Source: Candidatus Promineifilaceae bacterium
GTDB taxonomy: Bacteria; Chloroflexota; Anaerolineae; Promineifilales; Promineifilaceae
Reading direction: 5' to 3'
Assembly (NCBI GenBank): GCA_050292445.1
Contig: JBNKLQ010000001.1
Location: 1 to 50,316, forward strand
Length of the DNA: 50,316 bases
The notes beneath the pieces are model-generated. The model ran no database searches. It saw only the letters and a program-made list of their open reading frames with translations, and had not been told where the DNA came from. This document shows, piece after piece, positions 1-41,957 of this stretch. Both the position numbers and the translations under genes were made by a program. How positions within the stretch are numbered: the first letter of the stretch is position 1; each line of letters opens with the position of its first letter.

Positions 1-510
1 TTTGGGGCCTGCGTTTATGGCGTGCCCGTGATTGCTCATCAGTTGAGCCACCAATTTTTAAGCCAAATGCAGCAAGAAAACGTCGGCGAAACTTATCTGC
101 GCACCAAAGTGGAACGCAATCCAAAGCTGATTTTAGACTGGACGGCTGAAGATTGGGCTGAATTTGAACTGGTGCTGCCGGAAATCACCTACGAGGGCCA
201 GAAGCGGCTGCAATTTGATGATGTGTCGCTGGAACTGGTGCATGTGGGTGGGATTCACGCCGCCGATTCCACCGTCATCAAAGTGGTGAATGATGGCGTT
301 ATGTTCCTGGGCGACTGCTACTATCCTGCTCCGCGCTATGAAAATCCCGCCGACCAGATGTTGGACATGGCGATGCTAGCGAATCTTCTGGATGAGCAGT
401 ATGATCACTACATTGACGGGCACAACGCGCCGATGCAAACGCGCCATGTGCGCCGCATTTTGCGCTCTCAGGCGCTGCTTACTCGCCTGAATGAAACCAA
501 ACCTACCTGA
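1..510 (+). CDS. MBL-fold (beta-lactamase-like) hydrolase-like protein, 3' part; the 5' end is probably outside the window
   Basis: The frame is open from base 1, upstream of the GTG at 22. The segment LELVHVGGIHAADSTVIKVVNDGVMFLGDCYYP resembles the His/Asp region of MBL-fold hydrolases. Stop TGA at 508-510. Confidence 0.45.
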   Translation, partial: FGACVYGVPVIAHQLSHQFLSQMQQENVGETYLRTKVERNPKLILDWTAEDWAEFELVLPEITYEGQKRLQFDDVSLELVHVGGIHAADSTVIKVVNDGVMFLGDCYYPAPRYENPADQMLDMAMLANLLDEQYDHYIDGHNAPMQTRHVRRILRSQALLTRLNETKPT

Positions 511-520
511 GAAAAATTTA

Positions 521-600
521 TTACGAAGGAACAAAGAAACGAAGAAACAAAGCATTTGGCTTCTTTGTTCCTTTCTGCCTTCGTTTCTGCCTTCGTTTCT
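521..600. repeat. Hairpin repeat family 2 (ACGAAGGAAC...GAAGAAACAAAG...GCTTCTTTGTTCCTT), copy A, with internal 12-bp direct repeat TGCCTTCGTTTC x2
   Basis: Shares ACGAAGGAAC, GAAGAAACAAAG and GCTTCTTTGTTCCT blocks in the same order with 33979-34033. The blocks are mutually complementary, giving an imperfect stem-loop. Lies just after the stop at 510. Confidence 0.55.
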
Positions 601-653
601 TTATTATAAGCTTTTGTAGCAAAGCCTTTAATCATTGTGTAAGAAACGTTACT

Positions 654-1457
654 GTGCAGTTGAGTATACTTAATGGCATGAGACGATTTTTGTGGCTTGC
701 CCTTGTTTTGTTGATTTTGACGGCCTGTACCCCAACGGCCGAAACGGCCGTATCACCCCAACCTTCATTTGAAACGGCCGTCCTGCCTACCGCCACCGTT
801 CCCCCGCCTGTTATTGTTGAAGAAAGCGCAGCTGTGGCCGACGCAACGGCCGTTCCTGACCCCACAGCAACCATTGTCGTTGAAGACGAACCAGTCGCCG
901 AGGAAGTTGCTGGTGAAACTGGCGTGGTTAGCGGACGCACGGAAGACGGCGCATTTTTTCTGGGCGACCCCACTGCCCCCATTACCCACATCGACTACTC
1001 TGATTTCCTTTGAGGCAGCTGCCGTGCCTACGTGTTAGGCACAGAGCCGGACATCATTACTAACTATGTGGAAACTGGCCGTGTGAAGCTAATCTTTTGG
1101 CCCGTGCTTAATCATGGTGACCCCAGCGTTTATTCTACACTCACGGCCGAATGCGTGGGCCAACAGGACCCCGATCTATTTTGGATGGTACACGAATATC
1201 TGTTTGAGAATCAGGCTGATTTGTGGCGCGCGGACCGGGATTATTACGTGAATACGGCCGTATCCCTTGGAGCAGACCAGGCACAATTTGAAGCTTGCTA
1301 TGATGGGCCAGACGGCATTGCCACCGTGCTGGAGCTGGATAATATTCGCCGCCAGCGCAGCATCTTCAGCCAACCTATTTTTGATATTAACGGGGAAATT
1401 TTTGTGGGGGCCCAACCTTACGAGGATTTTGCTGCTATTTTTGATGCCCTACCATAA
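654..1457 (+). CDS. DsbA/BdbD-family thiol-disulfide oxidoreductase lipoprotein with an in-frame TGA at 1011-1013 (candidate selenocysteine codon; alternatively a nonsense pseudogene)
   Basis: ORFs 654-1013 and 1032-1457 share one frame and are separated only by the TGA. The N-terminus has a signal peptide with a lipobox-like LILTAC. The thioredoxin-fold part reads FLGDPTAPITHIDYSDFL-[TGA]-GSCRAYV...VETGRVKLIFWPV...DPDLFWMVHEYLFENQ, which is typical of DsbA/BdbD. Confidence 0.6.
1024..1042 (+). promoter_or_regulatory. Candidate bacterial SECIS-like hairpin
   Basis: Perfect 7-bp stem GTGCCTA / TAGGCAC with loop CGTGT. It starts 10 nt after the in-frame TGA, and the loop contains G and U. Confidence 0.35.
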
Positions 1458-3757: not shown

Positions 3758-4897
3758 ATGGCAAAAACGATTTTTTTAACCGGGGCAACAGGATATGTTG
3801 GCTGTCATTTGGCGCACCGCTTTTTGGCAGAGGGACATACCGTTTTGGCGCTTGTGCGGCAAAAGGGCGGACAGTCGGTGCAGCAGCGCATTGCAACGGC
3901 CGTTCTTGAAGTTGGCCCGCTTTCTGATGAAAAAATGGGCAACCTGCTGGCCATCTCCGGCACAGTGGAAGATTCTGCCCAGGAATTAAGCGCCGCCCTG
4001 CGCGCTCAGTTTAGTGACCCTATTGATGAGGTGTGGCACAGTGCCGCCATTTTTAATTTTAAGGAACGGGAACGGCCGTTGGTCGAAGCCACCAATATCG
4101 AAGGCACCCGCCACATGCTCGATCTGACCTGCCAGATCAACCCAGACACGCCGCCTCGCTTCATCTACATCAGCACGGCCTATTGCTTGGGCAGTGAATT
4201 TAATTCGGCCGTGCCCGAAACGATTCCCCAAAAGGTGAATGGGTTTCGTTCAATCTATGAATGGTCCAAGCATAGTGCCGAGCGGTTGGTAGATCAATAT
4301 CAGCAGGCGCAACGGCTGGATGTGACAATTTTCCGGCCTTCGATTGTGATTGGCACGCCAGAAACGGCCGTTCTCTGCAATTCTGGTTACTATCAGGTGC
4401 TTACTGAATGTCGTCGTCTACGCACCTTGCTGGAGCGCCATCAAGGCGATGAGTTCGACGGCAATGTACAGACCCGGCTGCAAGGGAATTCTGGTACGCC
4501 ACTTAACCTGGTCCCCATCGACTTTGTGGTTGAGAGCATGGTGTATCTGGCTCACTGCGTCGATCTGGCCCCAAACCGGACCAATCTGTTCAACATCGTC
4601 AATGAACGACCGCCGACCATCAAAGAAGTGCATCGTGCCCTGGTTTCCAGCCTGGACATGACCGGCTTAAAATTGGTTGCGCCTGATCAGTTTGAAGCAG
4701 AACCCATGAATCAGATAGAAAAAGTGATCAATCGTCGCATTGGCTTCCAAGCGCCCTACATGCACGAGCAGATTCATTTTTCCACCGAGACTTTTCGTCA
4801 GTTTGTGCCCCAGCATGTCTTGCCGCCGCCGCAAGTCAATTGGCGTTACATGGAACAAGTCAACGCCATCTTCCTCGCCCAATTTGAAGATGACTGA
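3758..4897 (+). CDS. SDR-family NAD(P)-dependent oxidoreductase (thioester/acyl reductase-like, epimerase fold)
   Basis: Rossmann motif FLTGATGYVG and catalytic YEWSK (YxxxK). RBS GAAGGA lies 5 nt before the ATG at 3758; the ORF opens at 3746. Confidence 0.8.
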   Translation: MAKTIFLTGATGYVGCHLAHRFLAEGHTVLALVRQKGGQSVQQRIATAVLEVGPLSDEKMGNLLAISGTVEDSAQELSAALRAQFSDPIDEVWHSAAIFNFKERERPLVEATNIEGTRHMLDLTCQINPDTPPRFIYISTAYCLGSEFNSAVPETIPQKVNGFRSIYEWSKHSAERLVDQYQQAQRLDVTIFRPSIVIGTPETAVLCNSGYYQVLTECRRLRTLLERHQGDEFDGNVQTRLQGNSGTPLNLVPIDFVVESMVYLAHCVDLAPNRTNLFNIVNERPPTIKEVHRALVSSLDMTGLKLVAPDQFEAEPMNQIEKVINRRIGFQAPYMHEQIHFSTETFRQFVPQHVLPPPQVNWRYMEQVNAIFLAQFEDD

Positions 4898-9270: not shown

Positions 9271-9315
9271 ATCCCCACCTTGAAAACAACATTTTACAAA
9301 TAAGGAGTGTTAGCT

Positions 9316-9606
9316 ATGAAGCTCAAACCATTGGGTGATCGCTTGGTTGTTGAACCATTGGAACGCGAACAAACCACCCCCTCTGGCCTTGTCTTGCCAG
9401 AAACCGCAAAAGAAAAGCCACAGGAAGGCGAAGTGATCGCCACTGGCCCTGGCCGTCGTGATGACGATGGCAAACGTGTTGAGATGGACGTAAACGTTGG
9501 CGATAAGGTGCTGTATGCCAAATATGGCGGCACCGAAGTCAAGATCGACGGCAAAAAATTGCTCATCCTCAAAGAATCTGACGTTCTGGCTATTGTAGAA
9601 GGCTAA
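9316..9606 (+). CDS. groES: Co-chaperonin GroES
   Basis: [46 protein letters not shown] is the canonical Cpn10 sequence. RBS AAGGAG lies upstream of the ATG at 9316. Confidence 0.95.
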
Positions 9607-9625
9607 ATTAAGGAGATTATTGAAA

Positions 9626-11275
9626 ATGGCGAAACAACTTGCATTTTCTGAAGAAGCTCGGCGTAAGCTGAAAAAAGGTATTGATACATTGGCAACGGCC
9701 GTATCCACGACGCTTGGTCCGAAAGGCCGTAACGTTGCCCTAGATAAGAAATTTGGTGCCCCCACGATCACCCACGACGGTGTGACCGTAGCCAAAGAAA
9801 TTGAACTGGAAGACCCATACGAGAATATGGGTGCCCAACTGCTGAAAGAAGCAGCCACCAAAACCAACGACATCGCTGGTGATGGTACCACCACCGCCAC
9901 TGTGTTGGCCCAAAACATCGTTAACGAAGGTTTGAAGAACATCGCCGCAGGAGCCAATCCAATGCTCCTCAAGCGTGGTATCGAAGCGGGAACGGCCGCT
10001 TTAGCTGACAAAATTCGCAGCATGGCCATCTCCATCGATGACAAAGCGGAAATTGCTTCCGTTGCTTCCATCTCGGCTCAGGACACCAGCATTGGTGAAC
10101 TAATTGCTGATGTGATGGACAAAGTGGGTAAAGACGGCGTTATCACCGTAGAAGAATCTCGCTCCCTGGAATTTGAAACCGAATACGTGGAAGGGATGCA
10201 GTTTGACCGTGGCTACATCAGCCCCTACTTCGTCACCGATTCCGACACTATGGAAGCGGTCATTGAAGATGCCCACATCCTCATCCACGACAAGAAAATC
10301 AGCTCCGCCCAGGACATCATTCCGATTCTGGAAAAACTGGTGCAGACCGGTAAGAAAAACCTGGTCATCATCGCTGAAGATGTAGACGGCGAAGCGCTGG
10401 CTACCCTGGTGTTGAACAAACTGCGCGGCATGATTAACGCGTTGGCCATCAAAGCCCCTGGCTTTGGCGACCGTCGTAAAGCGATGTTGCAAGACATTGC
10501 TGTACTCACCGGTGGTCAGGTTGTCACCGAAGAGATGGGCCGCAAGCTGGACAGCGTTCAGTTAAGCGACCTGGGCCGCGCTGCCAAAATTGTTTCCTCC
10601 AAAGATGACACCACCGTTGTTGATGGGCAGGGTGACGAAGCGCAGATCAAAGCCCGTGTTGAGCAAATCAAAGTGGAGATCGATCGCAGCACCTCTGACT
10701 ACGACCGTGAAAAATTGCAGGAACGTCTGGCCAAATTAGCTGGTGGCGTGGCTATCATTCGCGTGGGTGCCGCTACTGAGGTTGAGCTGAAAGAGAAGAA
10801 ACACCGTGTAGAAGATGCCCTGAGCGCTACCCGCGCTGCTGTAGAAGAAGGTATCGTGCCCGGTGGTGGTGTGGCTCTGTTGAATGCCCTGCCCGCTCTT
10901 AACGACGTTTCTTTGCCGGAAGGCGACCAGATGACCGGTATTGGCATTTTGCAGCGTGCGTTGGAAGCCCCAATGCGCAAAATTGCTGAGAACGCTGGCA
11001 AAAATGGTGACGTGGTTATTCAGAACGTACGCCAGGCACAGGAAAAAGCTGGCAACACCAACATTGGCTACAATGTGATGAGCGGCGAATACATCGATAT
11101 GGTGAAAGCTGGCATCATCGACCCGGCCAAAGTGACCCGTGGCGCATTGGAAAATGCTGCATCTATCGCTTCGATGGTTCTCACAACTGAAGCGTTGATT
11201 ACGGACATCCCCGAAGAAGAACCGCCAATGCCACCAGGTGGCGGCGGTATGCCCGGCGGCGGCATGGGTTTCTAA
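9626..11275 (+). CDS. groEL: Chaperonin GroEL
   Basis: [15 protein letters not shown]...[13 protein letters not shown]... with a C-terminal GGM-type tail ([14 protein letters not shown]). RBS AAGGAG lies upstream. Confidence 0.97.
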
Positions 11276-15156: not shown

Positions 15157-16398
15157 ATGACAAAACAACAATTTGATCCCATGCCCTTGCGGGCGCAGTT
15201 CCCAGCTTTGCAATTAGAGGTGAATGGCGAAACGGCCGTATATCTCGACGGTCCCGGCGGCACCCAGGTTCCCCAAAGTGTCATTGACGCCATGAGCGGC
15301 TATCTGCGCCACGGTGGCAGCAACTCTGGTGGTCCCTTCCTCACCAGCCGCTACACCGACGATATTAGCAACGCCGCCCGTGCCGCCATGATGGATTTCT
15401 ACAACGCGCGCCGCCCCGACGAAATAGTCTTTGGCCAAAACATGACCAGCCTTAATTTTAGCCTGAGCCGTGCCCTGGCCCGCACCTGGCAGCCTGGCGA
15501 TGAAATCATCGTCACCCGGCTGGACCACGACGCCAACATTTCACCCTGGCTGTTGGCGGCTCAAGACAGTGGTGTCGTCGTGCGCTGGCTCGATTTTGAT
15601 CCCACCGATTGCACCTTACGCCTGGACACTTTGCCCGATTTACTGAACGAAAAGACGCGGCTGCTGGCCATCACCTATGCCTCTAACGCGGTTGGCAGCA
15701 TTAGCGATGTGAAGCGGGCTGCCGAACTGGCCCATGCTGCTGGGGCGCTTGTGCTAGTTGATTCCGTCCATTTCGCGCCACATGGTCTCATTGATGTGCA
15801 GGCGATCAATTGTGACTTCCTTATCTCGTCATCTTATAAATATTTCGGCCCTCACACTGGCATCTTGTATGGTAAATACGAGTTACTGGATAACCTAATG
15901 GCCTACAAAGTGCGCCCTGCGCCAGCTAAACCAGCTGGCAAATGGGAAACCGGTACACAAAGTTTTGAAAGTTTGGCGGGCGTGACGGCTGCCGTCGATT
16001 ATTTGGCGGCAATTGGGGGTGAGACAGGCTCGCGCCGGGAACGCTTGGTGCAAGCGATGCAGCGCATCAAAATGTACGAAATGTCTTTAAGCCAGCGGTT
16101 TTTGGTAGGTGCCACGCAGGTTGCTGGCCTGCGGGTGTATGGCATTACCGATGTGGAGCGATTGGCGGAACGCACGCCCACATTTGCTGTTAGCATGGAG
16201 GGGATGTCTGCTGAAGCAGTTGCCACGCGTTTGGGGCAGCAGGGTATTTTTGTCTGGCATGGCCATTATTATGCCGTGGCCGTGATGGAGCGCTTGGGCA
16301 TGCTGGAACAGGGTGGCTTGGTCCGTATTGGCTTTGTGCATTACAACACGATGGCTGAAGTGGATCGTGTTGTAGCTGCTTTAGCCGGATTGCGTTAG
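15157..16398 (+). CDS. Class V aminotransferase-fold PLP enzyme (cysteine desulfurase-like)
   Basis: VYLDGPGGTQVP, VTRLDHDANISPW, VLVDSVHFAPH and the PLP-lysine context SSSYKYFGPHTG. Confidence 0.8.
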   Translation: MTKQQFDPMPLRAQFPALQLEVNGETAVYLDGPGGTQVPQSVIDAMSGYLRHGGSNSGGPFLTSRYTDDISNAARAAMMDFYNARRPDEIVFGQNMTSLNFSLSRALARTWQPGDEIIVTRLDHDANISPWLLAAQDSGVVVRWLDFDPTDCTLRLDTLPDLLNEKTRLLAITYASNAVGSISDVKRAAELAHAAGALVLVDSVHFAPHGLIDVQAINCDFLISSSYKYFGPHTGILYGKYELLDNLMAYKVRPAPAKPAGKWETGTQSFESLAGVTAAVDYLAAIGGETGSRRERLVQAMQRIKMYEMSLSQRFLVGATQVAGLRVYGITDVERLAERTPTFAVSMEGMSAEAVATRLGQQGIFVWHGHYYAVAVMERLGMLEQGGLVRIGFVHYNTMAEVDRVVAALAGLR

Positions 16399-29366: not shown

Positions 29367-29386
29367 CAGTGATAAAGGAGAATCTC

Positions 29387-30178
29387 ATGAAGGAAGAACG
29401 AGCCCAGATTTTAGAGATGTTGCAAAAAGGAAAAATCACCGTGGATGAGGCGGATTTGTTGCTGGAAGCTTTGGGAGAAACGGCCGTACCGCACCAATCA
29501 TCCCCACCGGTCAAAAACATTACGCCGCCCGACCCGCTCAAGCTAGTCAAACCGCTGCATACCAACCCCAAACTCAGCGCTGAACAAATCCTCCAACTCA
29601 ACCGTGAAGGCGTAGATCCCGACTTCATTCGTGCGGTGCGCCACTTGCCGCACACGGCGCTTTCTGGCGACAACATTGTGCAGATGGCTGTTGAAGGTGT
29701 GGCCCCGGAGTTTATTACGGCCGTTGGTCAACTAGAAAACCTGCCCCTGACTGGGGACAACATCGTGCAAATGGGCATAGAAGGGGTTGACCCAGCCTTT
29801 TTACAAGCGCTTAGCGGGTTGGAATTATCTCAACTTTCCGGTGACAACATTGTGCAGATGGGCATAGAAGGGGTTGATTCGGACTTTCTCCGTGCAGTTA
29901 GCGGATTGAAGTCATCTGAGTTAACGGGCGACAACATCGTGCAAATGGGTATCGAAGGAGTTGATCCTGATTTTATACAAGCGGTTAGCGGATTAAAGGT
30001 GTCCGGGTTGACCGGCGACAACATTGTGCAGATGGGTATTGAAGGAGTGGATGAAGCATTCATTCAAAAAATGAAAGAAGCCGATTTTATCCAGGAGCTT
30101 GATGGTGATGCCTTTGTCCAAATGGCCATAGAAGGCATAGACGACGAACTGTTAAAAGAAACGATACAACTTTTGTAG
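29387..30178 (+). CDS. SHOCT-like N-terminal helix plus seven 29-residue tandem repeats (acidic paralogue), hypothetical
   Basis: RBS AAGGAG lies 6 nt before the ATG at 29387. N-terminus MKEERAQILEMLQKGKITVDEADLLLEAL, then a Pro-rich linker. Repeats of the form L(S/T)GDNIVQMGIEGVDPDFIQAVSGL follow. No signal peptide or TM helix. Confidence 0.75.
   Translation: MKEERAQILEMLQKGKITVDEADLLLEALGETAVPHQSSPPVKNITPPDPLKLVKPLHTNPKLSAEQILQLNREGVDPDFIRAVRHLPHTALSGDNIVQMAVEGVAPEFITAVGQLENLPLTGDNIVQMGIEGVDPAFLQALSGLELSQLSGDNIVQMGIEGVDSDFLRAVSGLKSSELTGDNIVQMGIEGVDPDFIQAVSGLKVSGLTGDNIVQMGIEGVDEAFIQKMKEADFIQELDGDAFVQMAIEGIDDELLKETIQLL
29573..30175 (+). repeat. Seven tandem 87-bp (29-codon) coding repeats
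   Basis: GG(C/T/G)GACAACAT(T/C)GTGCA(G/A)ATGGG(C/T)AT(A/C/T)GAAGG(G/A)GT recurs with an 87-bp period at about 29667, 29754, 29841, 29928 and 30015. Confidence 0.85.
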
Positions 30179-30200
30179 GTCAATTTTGCAAAATTGACCC
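30176..30200. promoter_or_regulatory. Palindrome GGTCAATTTT-GC-AAAATTGACC (second copy of the candidate operator)
   Basis: 10-bp perfect arms. It overlaps the TAG stop of the upstream gene and lies 18 nt before the ATG at 30218. Confidence 0.6.
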
Positions 30201-30217
30201 ACTTTCAGGAGAACAAA

Positions 30218-31411
30218 ATGAACGACGAACGCAAAATGATTTTAACCATGCTGGCCGAAGGCAAAGTCTCGGCTGATGAAGCTAATTTACTGCTAGAAGC
30301 CTTGGCCACTAGCCAAACCAAACCCACCCCGCCAATACCGCCCACACCGCCAAAACTGGTAACACCACCTGCCTTCGTGAACCCGGTGCGCTGGGAAAAT
30401 GAAGCGCCCCAACGCCACCATCGGCACCCGCACATTACGCCGCAATTTGTGGACGCGATGGCTCAAGTTGGGCTAAAAGATTTGACAGAAGATGAGCTGT
30501 GGCAGCTGCAAATTCATCATGTGCATCCTGGTTACATTCGTCGGCTGCGCGATGCCGGGTTGACAGACCTCAGCGTAGATGACATTGTGCAAATGTCTAT
30601 TCACCATGTGCGGCCAGAACTTGTTCAAGGGATTCGTAGTCTGGGGCTGACGCACCTCACGGTAGATGATGTGGTTCAGCTTGGTACTCACCATGTGCGC
30701 ACCGATTATCTGCGGCAGGTACAGGAGTTGGGCTTAACCGATCTTACCGTGGACGACATCGTCCAGCTCAGCATCCACCGCGTGCGCCCGGAAATGATTC
30801 AGGAAATCCGTGAGCTGGGGCTGGATGATTTGACCGTAGACGACGTTGTGCAGTTGGGCATCCACAACGTACGGCCGAATCTGGTACGAGAAGTGCGCAG
30901 CATGGGCCTGACTGACCTTACCATCGACCAGATCGTGCAGCTGGGCATCCACAACATCCGTCCAGACCTCATCCAACAGCTGCAAGCCACCAATCTAGGG
31001 CCATTCGATCTGGACACCATCATCAATATGGGCATTCATCACGTCACGGCCGATTACATCAAAACGATGCACAGCTTTGGTCTGCCTGATTTGGATGCCG
31101 AGCAATTGGTGAATATGCGGATTCACGGCGTTGATCCGCACTTTGTGGCTGGCATCATGGCGCTGAATCTGCCCGATGTAACGGCCGAAACACTCGTCAC
31201 CATGCGCATTCACGGCCTGCGGCCCCAACATGCCCAAAAACTGCAAGAGATTTTAGGCAAATCGCTCACAGCCGATGATTTGGTCACCATGAAAATCCAT
31301 GGCGTTTCCCCCAAATTTGCCACGCGCATGAAGGCAAAGATGGGCGATGCGCTTACGGCGGATGAACTGGTGAACATGATGATTCATGGTGAGCCAGAAG
31401 GGGCCTGGTGA
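30218..31411 (+). CDS. SHOCT-like N-terminal helix plus about 10.6 29-residue tandem repeats (His/Arg-rich paralogue), hypothetical
   Basis: RBS CAGGAG lies before the ATG at 30218. N-terminus MNDERKMILTMLAEGKVSADEANLLLEAL, then a Pro-rich linker. Repeats of the form LTVDDIVQLGIH(H/N/G)VRPxLIxEIRxLGLTD follow without a single indel. Confidence 0.75.
   Translation: MNDERKMILTMLAEGKVSADEANLLLEALATSQTKPTPPIPPTPPKLVTPPAFVNPVRWENEAPQRHHRHPHITPQFVDAMAQVGLKDLTEDELWQLQIHHVHPGYIRRLRDAGLTDLSVDDIVQMSIHHVRPELVQGIRSLGLTHLTVDDVVQLGTHHVRTDYLRQVQELGLTDLTVDDIVQLSIHRVRPEMIQEIRELGLDDLTVDDVVQLGIHNVRPNLVREVRSMGLTDLTIDQIVQLGIHNIRPDLIQQLQATNLGPFDLDTIINMGIHHVTADYIKTMHSFGLPDLDAEQLVNMRIHGVDPHFVAGIMALNLPDVTAETLVTMRIHGLRPQHAQKLQEILGKSLTADDLVTMKIHGVSPKFATRMKAKMGDALTADELVNMMIHGEPEGAW
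30482..31408 (+). repeat. About 10.6 tandem 87-bp coding repeats (diverged at nucleotide level)
   Basis: A strict 29-codon periodicity is seen in the translation from aa 89 to the C-terminus. Confidence 0.8.
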
Positions 31412-38921: not shown

Positions 38922-41900
38922 TTAGGTATTTGGATTTTTTGTTGGGGTGAAGGTAGGCAGCGGTGTTTCGGTGAACCGCGATATGGGTGTGTTTGTTGGC
39001 GCAGGTGTATTGGTGGGGTTTGGTGTTGCAGTTGGCAGCGGCGTGTTTGTGACGGGAGGAGTAGTTGGCGGTACTGGTGTGTTTGTGTTAGTGGGTCTGG
39101 TTGTGCTTGTAAGTGTGGGTATGGGTGTGTTACGCGTAGGCACGATGGTAGGCACAGGCGTATTGCCTGGTGGTTGGCTGGTCGCGCCGGGCTGCGGCGT
39201 GATGGTGGGCAGCGGCGTCACCGATGGCGACGGGGTGGGGAACGGCGTGCTGGATGGCGTGAGGCTTGGCGTTGGCGTGGCGGTTTGGGCGTTGGCTGTT
39301 TCAGTGGCGGCAATGACCGTTTGTATAATAGGCAGCAGGGTTTGCGTGGGCATCGGTGTGGGGGTGGGGCAGGCCACCAGTGTAGGAGCTAGATCGCAGT
39401 AAAGCGTCACGCGGGCAGAGCTTCGGGTGGTCATGTTGGTTCCGGCCACCACACCATAACGGCCGGTAGGCAACAGCAGTTGGCTGTTGCGATTGTTGCG
39501 CAGGCGGCAGCTGCCCGTGAAGCAATCTAATTCCAAAACGGCCGTTTCCGCATCATAAATGACGCCCGCCACATTGTTGTCCGTGGGCAGCAGCACCATC
39601 GCCTCTGAGGGAACATCCAGTTCAAAGTTGTGTGAATCAGCATTTTTGTAATGGATGAGCATACGGCCGTACGTCAACGAAACCTGCGTCGCGTCGGGTT
39701 CATCTTCAGCCTGATTGACCCCGTTCAGCATCAGTTCAGCCTCGGAAGCCAGGTACAGTTCTGCACCGTCAGACAGCACCACGCCCATGCGGTCAGCGCC
39801 GGATTGAATGGCCGCATCTGGCCCGATGCGCACCAGATCGCCTGCCCGGGCGGCTTGCCATTCAGTGGCTCCGCTGGGGCGGAATAACGCACCTTCTCCA
39901 GCCGCAAAAATAACGGCAAAGCCAGGCTCCGGCACGTTGGCCGGAGCAATGAGCGGCGCAATGTCTGTAGACACAATTTGAGCAGAACTGTTAACGGCCG
40001 TTGCCGTCAGGCCATTAATAATTTGGGCAATCTGGGTGGCCGTGCCTGGTGGGAAGAAAACCCCATCTGGCTGGGAGCGACCAGGGATGAGCAGCAGCAA
40101 AATAATAAGAGAAACGGTGGAAAAAGCGGCGGCGGCCATCTGAAACGGCCGTTTCCGATGCAGCGGGACGTGTAGCACCGTGCCTGGTGCTTGCAGCACC
40201 ACGGCCGTCACATTGTCTGGCACATTGCGATCCAGCGCATCCTGCACCAAAATTTTGGCCGCTTCCGTTGGCGAGTTCTCCGAGATAACCCGGCGTAGAC
40301 GACGATACCTCCGCCGCCGACCGTTGGGGGTAATAAGCCCGTCTGAGCAGAGCAGCAAACGGTCGTTGGCTTGCAGCAGCAGCCCCTGATTTTGTCGGGC
40401 GGCCGTTTCATTTTCATTACGGCTCAAGTATAAACCGAGATCGATATGCAGCTCTGGCTCCAGCCCCATCGCGCTGCTGTGGTGGCTGTGGCTGCCGTTC
40501 GCGTGTCTCTTGCCGTTGTTAATGGTTGGTGCCTGAGGTTGGTTCCGGGTAAGCCGGTGTAGGCGATGCCGACGCAGTAGATAAATACGGCCGTTGCCCA
40601 CATGGGCCATGTACAGACGGTCTTCGTGAATGGCTACCAGGGCCACCATTGATTGCATCACCAGCGGCTCACGGTTCTGCTGCGACACGGAAAAGAGGGT
40701 GCGGTTGGTTTTTTGCAGGGCGCGTTGCAGCATGTCGGGGATTTCGTCGGGAACGGCCGTGTCTGCTTGCTCGATCTGGCTAAATAGTTCCGAGATGGCC
40801 AATTCGGCGGCCAGATGGCCATGCTGCTGGCTGCTGCCGCCGTCAGAAACGATAGCTACCAGCAGATGCAGACCGCCTCCTGTTTGAACCGCACCGACAC
40901 GCAGCCGATCTTCCAAAGTGCCACGCGTGCGCGACCGGCCAATATCTTGTTTGGTGCCGCAGCCAGCCAGCCACGCTTGCAGCCAGTGGGGCAGTGGCTC
41001 TTTGCTGTCCTCCTCGCTCACATCGGCAAAACCACTGGTTACAGAGCTGCCGCTTTCTGATTCTGGCTGGATGATGATGGGAGGCGCATTAGGGAACTCT
41101 ACCGGTGGCAGCGTTTCCATTTGCGCCGCTTCCACAAAGGGAGTGGTTAAATCTGAAGCGGTAGCAAACCGATCCTCACGGCTTTTGGCCATTGCTCGCG
41201 CAATGATCTGACTGATCGATTGGGGCAAACTTGGGTTTAGCGTAGCAACATCTGGTACCGGGTCAGACAAATGCATGAGGGCCACAGGCAAACGGCCGTC
41301 TGCCGTAAACGGCAGCTTCCCTGCCAGCATTTCAAACAGAATGACCCCCAGCGCGTAAATATCAGTACGGCCGTCCAAGTGCGCCTGTGCCCTAATTTGC
41401 TCTGGACTCATGTAGGCAGGCGTGCCCACCATGCCATCATTACGCGTCAGCGTGGTAAACGTGCCTTCGGCAAACTTGGCCAGGCCAAAATCAGCCAAGT
41501 ACGCTTTTTGGCTGCTGTCAAACAAAATATTCGATGGTTTTAAATCGCGGTGAATAATATTGTGCGAATGGGTTGTGTCTAGCGCCGGGGCGATCTGGTT
41601 CAAGATGGTGGCCACTTCACCCAGGGTAAGCGGCGCATGTTTAAGTCGCTCACGCAGCGATCCGCCCTCCATGTAGCGCATCACCAGGTATGGCTGTTCA
41701 TCTTCTTCACCAAAGTCGTACACGGGCACGATGGCAGGATGGTTGAGCGAAGCTACCATGCGGCTTTCGCGCTTAAAACGAGAGCGTAAATTGTCGTCGT
41801 AGCTGCGATCCTTCAACAAAACCTTGATGGCTACCTGGCGTTCTATGTATGGGTCGAAGGCAAGGTAAACTACCGCCATGCCACCTCGGCCTAGCAAAGA

Positions 41901-41957
41901 CTCAATCTGGTATCGACCTATCTGAGTAGGTAACTCTTCAGGGTTTGATGAATTCAT
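38922..41957 (-). CDS. Multidomain Ser/Thr protein kinase: Hanks kinase, PP2C-like domain, TM helix, FecR-like extracellular region, Pro/Thr-rich tail
   Basis: GRGGMAVVY, AIKV, HRDLKPSNILF, DFGLAK and GTPAYMSPEQ mark the kinase. VSDGGSS...MAHVGNGRIYLLR...LLLCSDGL...DNVTAVVLQ marks the PP2C-like part. A hydrophobic helix (AAAAFSTVSLIILLLLI) and a C-terminal PTPTP tail follow. Confidence 0.9.
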   Translation of the reverse strand: MNSSNPEELPTQIGRYQIESLLGRGGMAVVYLAFDPYIERQVAIKVLLKDRSYDDNLRSRFKRESRMVASLNHPAIVPVYDFGEEDEQPYLVMRYMEGGSLRERLKHAPLTLGEVATILNQIAPALDTTHSHNIIHRDLKPSNILFDSSQKAYLADFGLAKFAEGTFTTLTRNDGMVGTPAYMSPEQIRAQAHLDGRTDIYALGVILFEMLAGKLPFTADGRLPVALMHLSDPVPDVATLNPSLPQSISQIIARAMAKSREDRFATASDLTTPFVEAAQMETLPPVEFPNAPPIIIQPESESGSSVTSGFADVSEEDSKEPLPHWLQAWLAGCGTKQDIGRSRTRGTLEDRLRVGAVQTGGGLHLLVAIVSDGGSSQQHGHLAAELAISELFSQIEQADTAVPDEIPDMLQRALQKTNRTLFSVSQQNREPLVMQSMVALVAIHEDRLYMAHVGNGRIYLLRRHRLHRLTRNQPQAPTINNGKRHANGSHSHHSSAMGLEPELHIDLGLYLSRNENETAARQNQGLLLQANDRLLLCSDGLITPNGRRRRYRRLRRVISENSPTEAAKILVQDALDRNVPDNVTAVVLQAPGTVLHVPLHRKRPFQMAAAAFSTVSLIILLLLIPGRSQPDGVFFPPGTATQIAQIINGLTATAVNSSAQIVSTDIAPLIAPANVPEPGFAVIFAAGEGALFRPSGATEWQAARAGDLVRIGPDAAIQSGADRMGVVLSDGAELYLASEAELMLNGVNQAEDEPDATQVSLTYGRMLIHYKNADSHNFELDVPSEAMVLLPTDNNVAGVIYDAETAVLELDCFTGSCRLRNNRNSQLLLPTGRYGVVAGTNMTTRSSARVTLYCDLAPTLVACPTPTPMPTQTLLPIIQTVIAATETANAQTATPTPSLTPSSTPFPTPSPSVTPLPTITPQPGATSQPPGNTPVPTIVPTRNTPIPTLTSTTRPTNTNTPVPPTTPPVTNTPLPTATPNPTNTPAPTNTPISRFTETPLPTFTPTKNPNT

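What the first reader, a model, noticed from the sequence alone, without database searches (positions are those of the whole stretch)
654..1457. DsbA/BdbD-family lipoprotein with TGA at the first Cys of the CxxC motif (U-G-S-C): candidate selenoprotein
ORFs 654-1013 and 1032-1457 are in one frame, interrupted only by TGA at 1011-1013. The joined 267-aa product has a signal peptide with a lipobox-like LILTAC, a low-complexity linker, and a DsbA/BdbD-type thioredoxin fold. The TGA falls exactly where this family carries the nucleophilic Cys: ...APITHIDYSDFL-[TGA]-GSC-RAYVLG... This gives UxxC, the arrangement known from thioredoxin-fold selenoproteins. Ten nt downstream lies a perfect 7-bp hairpin, GTGCCTA-cgtgt-TAGGCAC (1024-1042). 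Its apical loop contains G and U, and its distance from the TGA suits a bacterial SECIS. The downstream frame stays open for 148 codons with family-typical residues. TGA is an ordinary stop elsewhere in the window (508-510, 4895-4897), so a TGA=Trp code is excluded. The competing explanation is a recent TGY-to-TGA nonsense mutation.
Basis: partly seen in the sequence, partly recalled or inferred. Interest (0 to 1): 0.8.

Follow-up and report, generated by a model that had tools for sequence, protein, structure and literature searches.

The report
Known selenocysteine DsbA-like lipoprotein gene
The in-frame TGA is almost certainly a genuine selenocysteine codon in an exported thiol-disulfide oxidoreductase lipoprotein, but this selenoprotein family is already curated, so the gene is a routine, usually mis-annotated, member.

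Summary
TGA at 1011-1013 joins two ORFs into one gene (ATG 678 to TAA 1457, 259 aa). A perfect 7-bp hairpin lies at 1024-1042.

The selenoprotein reading is strongly supported:
- All 127 homologous sites collected from Chloroflexota genomes and metagenomes carry TGA there, never TGY. Identity over the part after the TGA is 43-95%.
- Protein sequence is conserved on both sides of the TGA.
- The hairpin is kept through compensatory changes at all 7 pairs. Loop bases C-G-U are invariant, and synonymous sites inside it are frozen.
- Cys-containing homologues have TGC at the same position and no hairpin.
- The hairpin meets all four constraints of the published bacterial SECIS model.
- TGA is an ordinary stop for 9 of 36 ORFs in the window.

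It is not new. The joined protein scores 346.9 bits (cut-off 190) against NCBIfam NF041057, "Rcas_1661 family thioredoxin-like (seleno)lipoprotein". A 2026 review lists that model as the "DsbG-like" UxxC selenoprotein.

selA, selB, selC and selD could not be checked in the source genome. None lies in the window or in about 0.45 Mb of related DNA. Sec insertion itself is inferred, not shown.

The parts
678..1457 (+). Complete selenoprotein gene: ATG 678 to TAA 1455-1457, 259 aa with Sec at residue 112
   Evidence: Translation. NCBIfam NF041057 covers protein residues 7-257 and profile positions 2-246 of 247, 346.9 bits. The upstream half is called as 111 aa in an identical public contig.
678..728 (+). 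Lipoprotein signal peptide with lipobox L-T-A-C; Cys17 codon at 726-728
   Evidence: Sequence MRRFLWLALVLLILTAC. A lipobox-like motif was found in at least 55 of 71 relatives. The family name says '(seleno)lipoprotein'.
729..938 (+). Low-complexity Pro/Thr/Ala/Glu/Val-rich linker between the lipid anchor and the catalytic domain
   Evidence: Translation. This stretch varies in sequence and length among relatives.
939..1454 (+). Thioredoxin-fold (DsbA/BdbD/DsbG-like) catalytic domain, spanning the TGA
   Evidence: Pfam PF13462 on residues 92-256, E = 1.6e-19. BdbD 3eu3, E = 1.1e-15.
1011..1013 (+). In-frame TGA read as selenocysteine (U112)
   Evidence: TGA at the homologous codon in 72/72 and 55/55 sites. 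Cys (TGC) at this position in Cys-form family members.
1011..1022 (+). Redox motif U-G-S-C (UxxC)
   Evidence: It aligns with CPSC of BdbD. The second Cys is invariant in 70/70 sequences.
1024..1042 (+). SECIS hairpin: 7-bp stem (1024-1030 with 1036-1042) and loop CGUGU (1031-1035)
   Evidence: 96.8% of cells are paired against 28-43% in slid controls, and all 7 pairs show compensatory changes. RNAalifold predicts the same hairpin. Folding energy is -8.9 kcal/mol. Synonymous sites are frozen at codons +5 to +7. It fits the bSECIS model of PMC13188914.
1032..1034 (+). GTG in the SECIS loop that gene callers mistake for a start codon
   Evidence: All 120 listed database homologues are 142-146 aa. 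The ten that were read all start M/V-LGTEP or M-LGVEP.
1374..1376 (+). Proline of the invariant Q-P motif (SQPIF), inferred to be the cis-Pro loop facing the active site
   Evidence: Q114 and P115 of the C-terminal ORF are invariant in 26 sequences. The cis-Pro role is inferred from general knowledge of the thioredoxin fold.

Best explanation
Window 678-1457 is one gene for an exported selenoprotein.

Proposed mechanism (inferred, not shown):
1. During translation, the hairpin 10 nt after UGA-112 acts as a bacterial SECIS. It recruits SelB carrying Sec-tRNA(Sec), so UGA is read as selenocysteine instead of stop.
2. The N-terminal signal peptide directs export. Cys17 of the lipobox LTAC is lipidated, which anchors the protein on the outer face of the cytoplasmic membrane.
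3. A flexible linker carries a DsbA/BdbD/DsbG-type thioredoxin-fold domain with the active site U-G-S-C.
4. Sec112 takes the place of the nucleophilic Cys. It cycles between selenol and a selenenyl-sulfide with Cys115 to oxidise, reduce or isomerise disulfides of extracytoplasmic proteins.

Shown here: the conserved TGA, the covarying hairpin, selection on both halves, family membership, and Cys homologues.
Inferred: SelB-dependent Sec insertion, lipidation, and the redox role and its direction.
For: 1. TGA is conserved in 72/72 sites in genome contigs and 55/55 sites in metagenome contigs. These come from Promineifilales/Ardenticatenales-type Chloroflexota, at 43-95% identity over the part after the TGA. 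No TGY was seen.
2. Residues on both sides of the TGA are invariant while their codons vary. Upstream, Gly -21 uses GGC 36, GGG 21, GGT 8 and GGA 5; Asp -6 and Ser -4 behave likewise. Downstream, Gly +22 does the same.
3. The hairpin is paired in 96.8% of cells against 28-43% when partners are slid. All 7 pairs show double changes: 53 such cells against 8.0 +/- 2.5 in shuffles. RNAalifold finds the same structure independently.
4. Synonymous choice collapses inside the hairpin: Ala +5 is GCC in 51/52, Tyr +6 is TAC in 57/57, Val +7 is GTG in 69/70. Outside it, Tyr +18 is TAC 31 and TAT 30, and Val +19 uses four codons.
5. Cys-form members P0125, P0161 and P0174 have C at the TGA position. P0125 and P0161 belong to the same NCBIfam family. 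Their DNA has TGC and no hairpin, -1.4 and 0.0 kcal/mol against -8.9.
6. All four bSECIS constraints are met: a 5-nt loop, a 7-bp stem, G at loop position 2 followed by U, 17 nt from UGA to the loop, and -8.9 kcal/mol.
7. NCBIfam NF041057 '(seleno)lipoprotein' scores 346.9 bits against a cut-off of 190. It is listed as the DsbG-like UxxC selenoprotein in PMC13188914.
8. The U aligns with the first Cys of CPSC in BdbD 3eu3.
9. TGA is a normal stop in 9 of 36 window ORFs.
10. SelD, SelA and SelB are reported in other Chloroflexi, including Anaerolinea thermophila and Caldilinea aerophila (Peng 2016 Table S1).
Against: - No selA, selB, selD or tRNA-Sec was found in the window or anywhere in the 0.5 Mb searched, window included (tblastn). 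ARAGORN found no tRNA-Sec in the 38 loci scanned. The rest of the source genome could not be read, so the machinery is unverified for this lineage.
- No Rfam family matches the hairpin.
- In the single sequence the hairpin is not statistically remarkable.
- There is no protein-level evidence that Sec is inserted.
Confidence: 0.88

Rival explanations
1. UGA-112 is recoded, but not with selenocysteine. One route is Cys delivered by SelB with a tRNASec-like tRNA-Cys ('tRNAReC'). Another is hairpin-stimulated read-through by a near-cognate tRNA.
For: The comparative data prove recoding, not the identity of the inserted residue. A tRNAReC/SelB system that inserts Cys at UGA is cited in PMC13582414 (Vargas-Rodriguez 2018, seen). 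The Sec machinery was not verified in this lineage.
Against: The hairpin matches the SelB-type bSECIS model, including the invariant G-U in the loop. The position is the redox-active Cys where Sec typically replaces Cys. If Cys were wanted, TGC would be simpler, as in the Cys-form relatives. The family is curated as a selenoprotein.
Confidence: 0.05
2. There are two separate genes. A small N-terminal lipoprotein ends at TGA 1013. An independent 141-aa protein starts at GTG 1032, as public gene calls have it.
For: Gene callers annotate it this way in all 120 listed homologue clusters and in the looked-up contigs.
Against: - Pfam and NCBIfam domain matches run straight across the TGA.
- The split would separate the first active-site residue from the rest of the fold, and would leave the C-terminal part without a signal peptide.
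- Cys-form members of the same family are contiguous proteins of 241-250 aa.
- The frame relation and the 18-nt spacing are fixed in all sites.
Confidence: 0.03
3. The gene is a pseudogene created by a recent TGY-to-TGA nonsense mutation.
For: This is the default reading of an interrupted ORF in a single sequence.
Against: TGA is at the same codon in 127 of 127 homologous sites, down to 43% identity. That includes tandem paralogues, and both halves show purifying selection.
Confidence: 0.01
4. TGA is a sense codon genome-wide in this organism (an alternative genetic code).
For: None beyond the in-frame TGA itself.
Against: 9 of 36 well-supported ORFs in the window end at TGA. The other 14 places where TGA joins two long open frames were judged, from their coordinates only, to lie inside or opposite annotated genes.
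Confidence: 0.005

Closest known systems
NCBIfam NF041057, 'Rcas_1661 family thioredoxin-like (seleno)lipoprotein', which is the 'DsbG-like' selenoprotein of Kryukov/Zhang/Gladyshev (COG1651, UxxC)
   Same: Full-length equivalog match at 346.9 bits against a cut-off of 190. It shares the UxxC motif, the lipoprotein signal, and a mix of Sec and Cys forms. The family is listed under 'predicted with high confidence' in PMC13188914. It was earlier reported from the Sargasso Sea and from Symbiobacterium thermophilum.
   Different: Nothing essential differs. The namesake Roseiflexus castenholzii lacks SelD, SelA and SelB, so Rcas_1661 itself is presumably a Cys form. The Promineifilales/Ardenticatenales clade sampled here is uniformly Sec.
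Bacillus subtilis BdbD (PDB 3eu3), a DsbA-like extracytoplasmic thiol-disulfide oxidoreductase
   Same: It is the closest solved structure by sequence, E = 1.1e-15. CPSC aligns with UGSC, and the flanking motif is similar: fgDYkCpsC against iDYSDFLUgsC.
   Different: BdbD has Cys, not Sec. The match covers only query residues 8-101. No redox partner (BdbC, DsbB or VKOR) was identified near the window gene.
DsbA-like selenoprotein form 1 (PF01323 / COG2761, UxxC)
   Same: A thioredoxin-fold selenoprotein with UxxC.
   Different: It is a different subfamily. PF01323 matches only the C-terminal part weakly, 27.1 bits against 71.1 for PF13462. NCBIfam places the window protein in NF041057.
UGSC-containing selenoprotein (NF041046)
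   Same: The same tetrapeptide U-G-S-C.
   Different: NF041046 gives no match even at E <= 1. In relatives of the window protein the two middle residues vary (GS, PT, GN, SS and others), so the UGSC string is a coincidence.
E. coli fdhF-type bacterial SECIS / consensus bSECIS model
   Same: A stem-loop inside the coding sequence just after UGA. It has G then U in a small apical loop, 17 nt between UGA and the loop, and folding energy at or below -7.5 kcal/mol. From my own knowledge, the minimal E. coli element is a 17-nt upper stem-loop 11 nt from UGA, which is similar to the 10 nt here.
   Different: The stem is a simple perfect 7-bp helix with no bulged U, and no lower stem was detected. It is not represented in Rfam.

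Membership tests
NF041057 Rcas_1661 family / DsbG-like selenoprotein | Full-length HMM score above the curated cut-off | tested here: met
   346.9 bits against a cut-off of 190, E = 6.4e-104, profile positions 2-246 of 247.
NF041057 Rcas_1661 family / DsbG-like selenoprotein | UxxC redox motif, with TGA aligned to Cys of Cys-containing homologues | tested here: met
   DYSDFL-[TGA]-GSC in the window. P0125 has DYSDFLCVTC and P0161 has DYSDFLCSAC, both in the same family. Their codon is TGC.
NF041057 Rcas_1661 family / DsbG-like selenoprotein | Lipoprotein signal peptide with a lipobox Cys | tested here: met
   MRRFLWLALVLLILTAC in the window. A lipobox-like motif was found in at least 55 of 71 relatives. 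This is a pattern match only; no dedicated predictor was run.
Bacterial selenoprotein (general) | In-frame TGA conserved among orthologues, with coding conservation on both sides | tested here: met
   127 of 127 sites carry TGA. Residues on both sides are invariant while their codons vary.
Bacterial selenoprotein (general) | bSECIS: 3-9 nt loop, 4-16 bp stem, G in loop position 1 or 2, 16-37 nt from UGA to loop, folding energy <= -7.5 kcal/mol | tested here: met
   The loop is CGUGU (5 nt), the stem is 7 bp, the spacing is 17 nt, and the energy is -8.9 kcal/mol. Covariation was seen at 7 of 7 pairs.
Bacterial selenoprotein (general) | Genome encodes selA, selB, selD and tRNA-Sec | not testable with these tools
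   None was found in the window or anywhere in the 0.5 Mb searched. Other Chloroflexi have the machinery.
Bacterial selenoprotein (general) | Selenium demonstrated in the polypeptide | not testable with these tools
   This needs 75Se labelling or mass spectrometry.
DsbA/BdbD thioredoxin-fold oxidoreductases (PF13462 Thioredoxin_4) | Domain match, with the active-site CxxC position and the cis-Pro loop conserved | tested here: met
   PF13462 scores 71.1 bits against a cut-off of 23.2. CPSC of BdbD aligns with UGSC. The Q-P motif is invariant. No 3-D model was made.
DsbA/BdbD thioredoxin-fold oxidoreductases (PF13462 Thioredoxin_4) | Thiol-disulfide exchange activity and a redox partner (DsbB, BdbC, VKOR or CcdA) | not tested
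   No partner gene was recognised in the window or in the called genes of L001, L002 and L066.
UGSC-containing selenoprotein (NF041046) | HMM match to NF041046 | tested here: not met
   NF041057 was the only NCBIfam hit at E <= 1.
DsbA-like selenoprotein form 1 (PF01323/COG2761) | Full-length PF01323 DSBA domain as the best match | tested here: not met
   PF01323 matches only residues 160-253 at 27.1 bits. PF13462 is the better, full-domain match.

The most novel reading that the evidence does not exclude
In a whole order of filamentous Chloroflexota (Promineifilales/Ardenticatenales, common in activated sludge and sediments), this DsbA/BdbD-type lipoprotein was found only in the Sec form and is often duplicated in tandem. 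If it is the main extracytoplasmic disulfide catalyst there, oxidative protein folding would depend on selenium supply. A bolder variant is that the UGA is read by SelB with a Cys-charged tRNASec-like tRNA rather than with Sec.
Probability: 0.1. Interest if true: 0.4.

Novelty: already known. Interest (0 to 1): 0.15.

Why it matters
For discovery it matters little. The family, its UxxC Sec position and its lipoprotein nature are already in NCBIfam and in selenoproteome reviews.

Its practical value is for annotation. In the large protein collection, all 120 listed homologue clusters are truncated to 142-146 aa. The ten that were read all begin at the hairpin-loop GUG. The catalytic residue is therefore missing from those public entries.

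The data also give an unusually clean comparative case of a minimal bacterial SECIS. It has 7 covarying pairs, an invariant CGU in the loop, and is absent from Cys forms. That could serve as a benchmark for SECIS predictors or for SelB-binding studies in Chloroflexota.

Tried and rejected
- Rfam, at gathering thresholds on the whole window and at E <= 10 on 990-1090: no family matched.
- Single-sequence folding of 1005-1075: z = 0.02, uninformative.
- tRNA search in the window and in 38 loci: no tRNA-Sec.
- tblastn with E. coli SelA, SelB and SelD against the window plus all loci (0.5 Mb): no hit at E <= 1e-3.
- Pfam on 36 window ORFs: no Sec-machinery gene.
- The class-V aminotransferase at 15157-16398 is a VC1184-type cysteine desulfurase-like protein. 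It is not SelA or a recognised Sec lyase.
- Literature searches for Ardenticatenales or Promineifilales with selenocysteine, and for 'Rcas_1661', gave nothing relevant.
- No supplements are held for BSepDB or the 2026 review.
- Scan of the window for other TGA-bridged ORF pairs: 14 other candidates. Judged from their coordinates, all lie inside or opposite annotated genes, so there is no second candidate selenoprotein.
- Rejected readings: pseudogene, two separate genes, and a reassigned TGA (see rivals).

Full report
**Observation.** The window has TGA at 1011-1013, in frame between ORF 654-1013 and ORF 1032-1457. The joined product reads ...APITHIDYSDFL*GSCRAYVLGTEP.... A perfect hairpin, GTGCCTA-CGTGT-TAGGCAC, lies at 1024-1042, 10 nt after the TGA.

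With Cys put in for the stop, the joined protein matches Pfam Thioredoxin_4 (PF13462) over residues 92-256, straight across the TGA, at E = 1.6e-19.

The likely start is ATG 678. An identical public contig has the upstream half called as 111 aa, and relatives have signal peptides at the equivalent position. The product is then 259 aa, with lipobox L-T-A-C (Cys17) and the TGA at codon 112.

On its own the hairpin is weak evidence. About 1% of window positions are followed by such a hairpin, and the region folds no better than shuffles.

**Comparative evidence: the TGA.** A protein search returned 182 homologue clusters. All 120 listed are 142-146 aa and cover only the C-terminal 53-54% of the query. 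The ten that were read all begin M/V-LGTEP or M-LGVEP. Gene callers therefore appear to truncate this gene throughout.

DNA around two of them has the same in-frame TGA, the same 18-nt gap and the same hairpin.

A scan of one genome per species gave 63 loci, all Chloroflexota. They are labelled Anaerolineae, Ardenticatenaceae, Promineifilaceae, Ca. Leptofilum and similar (lineage). Identity over the part after the TGA is 43-95%. Together with the window, L001 and L002, these loci gave 72 sites, all with TGA at D-Y-S-D-F-L-[TGA]-x-x-C. A metagenome scan added 55 sites, again all TGA. No TGC or TGT was seen in this clade.

Residues on both sides of the TGA are invariant while their codons vary freely. 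Gly -21 uses GGC 36, GGG 21, GGT 8 and GGA 5. Asp -6, Ser -4 and Gly +22 behave the same way. Both halves are therefore translated in this frame and are under purifying selection. This excludes a recent nonsense mutation and the two-gene reading.

**Comparative evidence: the hairpin.** I aligned 71 sequences over 66 nt without gaps.
- The 7 proposed pairs are formed in 96.8% of cells. Sliding the partners gives 28-43%.
- All 7 pairs show changes on both sides. There are 53 such cells, against 8.0 +/- 2.5 in shuffles.
- RNAalifold predicts exactly this hairpin on its own.
- Several compensatory changes alter the protein on one arm, for example Ala to Ser or Thr paired with a silent Gly change. 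Amino-acid conservation alone therefore does not explain the stem.
- Loop bases C, G and U are invariant and the fourth base is G in at least 90%.
- Synonymous choice collapses inside the element: Ala +5 is GCC in 51/52, Tyr +6 is TAC in 57/57, Val +7 is GTG in 69/70.
- Outside the element, Tyr +18 is TAC 31 and TAT 30, and Val +19 uses four codons.

**Cys forms as a control.** The representative search found contiguous homologues of 241-250 aa with Cys at the TGA position. P0125 reads DYSDFLCVTC, P0161 reads DYSDFLCSAC and P0174 reads YYSDFLCTTC. P0125 and P0161 pass the same NCBIfam model. Their DNA has TGC, and the homologous 19-mer does not fold: -1.4 and 0.0 kcal/mol, against -8.9 for the window. 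The hairpin therefore goes with the TGA.

**Fit to the SECIS model.** The published bacterial consensus requires the following (PMC13188914):
- a 3-9 nt loop;
- a 4-16 bp stem;
- G in loop position 1 or 2, usually followed by G or U;
- 16-37 nt between UGA and the loop;
- folding energy at or below -7.5 kcal/mol.

The window element has a 5-nt loop C-G-U-G-U, a 7-bp stem, 17 nt of spacing and -8.9 kcal/mol. All constraints are met.

**Genetic code.** 9 of 36 chosen ORFs in the window end in TGA. The other 14 TGA-bridged long open frames lie, by their coordinates, inside or opposite annotated genes, so there is no other credible TGA-bridged ORF pair. TGA is an ordinary stop here.

**What the protein is.** NCBIfam NF041057, 'Rcas_1661 family thioredoxin-like (seleno)lipoprotein' (an equivalog model), matches the whole protein at 346.9 bits against a cut-off of 190. 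A 2026 review lists NF041057 as the 'DsbG-like protein', UxxC, one Sec, among families 'predicted with high confidence'. The DsbG-like family (COG1651) already appears in the 2005 Sargasso Sea and 2006 bacterial selenoproteome papers.

The closest solved structure by sequence is B. subtilis BdbD (3eu3, E = 1.1e-15). Its CPSC aligns with U-G-S-C, so the Sec sits at the position of the N-terminal active-site Cys.

A lipobox-like motif is present in at least 55 of 71 relatives.

The UGSC string is a coincidence. The middle residues vary among relatives, and the separate 'UGSC-containing' family NF041046 does not match.

**Mechanism (inferred).**
1. SelB with Sec-tRNA(Sec) is recruited by the hairpin and decodes UGA-112.
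2. The protein is exported and lipidated at Cys17.
3. A low-complexity linker tethers the thioredoxin-fold domain to the membrane.
4. Sec112 and Cys115 form a selenenyl-sulfide redox couple that acts on extracytoplasmic thiols and disulfides.

The direction of the reaction (oxidase, reductase or isomerase) and the redox partner are unknown. No DsbB, VKOR or CcdA gene was recognised in the window or in the called genes of L001, L002 and L066.

**What is missing.** The Sec machinery could not be checked in the source genome.
- The window has no tRNA and no sel gene.
- The 0.5 Mb searched, window included, has no SelA, SelB or SelD homologue by tblastn with the E. coli proteins.
- ARAGORN found no tRNA-Sec in the 38 loci scanned.

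Literature shows SelD, SelA and SelB in other Chloroflexi, including Anaerolinea thermophila and Caldilinea aerophila. Roseiflexus castenholzii, the family's namesake, lacks them and so presumably has a Cys form.

Recoding by something other than Sec cannot be formally excluded. One example is SelB with a Cys-charged tRNASec-like tRNA (cited). It is unlikely.

**Verdict.** The feature is a routine member of an already curated selenoprotein family. Its main practical lesson concerns annotation: public gene calls split the gene at the Sec codon and restart it at the GUG inside the SECIS loop.

Noticed in passing
L031:2229, L035:2217, L041:2256, L043:2256, L051:2295, L056:818; also L074:10914, L086:1367, L087:3371, L088:1492, L095:1033, L097:809, L098:813, L106:677: Many relatives carry a second paralogue, in most of these loci about 750 nt downstream of the first copy. 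It has its own in-frame TGA and its own covarying hairpin, typically GCGCCCACGTGCTGGGCGC. In the genome loci its downstream signature, where read, is mostly YWPMLDLGPNS instead of FWPVLNHGDPS. The window has no such copy; a response regulator follows the gene instead.
   Followed up: partly
window 1032-1034, and proteins P0001-P0120: There is a systematic annotation error. All 120 listed homologue clusters are 142-146 aa. The ten that were read begin at the GUG in the SECIS loop, so the active-site Sec and the signal peptide are missing from those entries.
   Followed up: yes
proteins P0121, P0124, P0127, P0130-P0137 and others: More distant relatives (about 30-35% identity) are proteins of 450-1160 aa with 2-5 tandem copies of this thioredoxin-like domain. 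In the two that were read, P0124 and P0137, the motifs are CxxC, and the last domain of P0124 is degenerate.
   Followed up: partly
window 523-605: The intergenic region upstream of the gene holds a purine-rich then pyrimidine-rich imperfect inverted repeat (523-551 with 556-584, 79% complementary). It is built from an 8-nt periodic unit (ACGAAGRAACAAAG, three copies). It may be a terminator-like structure after the upstream gene, which is a Lactamase_B-family gene in L066. The simple terminator scan did not call it.
   Followed up: partly
L039:1480-1560: In Ca. Leptovillus affinis (a 'tig' assembly) the reading frame breaks shortly after ...VKLVF. This is either an assembly indel or a real pseudogene copy. 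The low tblastn E-value for L064 (6e-32 at 68% identity) hints at something similar there.
   Followed up: no
window 15157-16398 (+): This is a class-V aminotransferase of the VC1184 'cysteine desulfurase-like protein' family (TIGR01976, 507.7 bits). Enzymes of this kind can mobilise S or Se, but nothing links it to the selenoprotein gene 14 kb away.
   Followed up: partly
window 29369-31411 (+) and 38922-41957 (-): Two adjacent genes each begin with a SHOCT-like DUF2089-C domain. Further along is a 1011-aa fusion of a Ser/Thr protein kinase with a PP2C/SpoIIE phosphatase domain. The ORF at 9310-10071 (-) overlaps the groES/groEL region and looks spurious.
   Followed up: no
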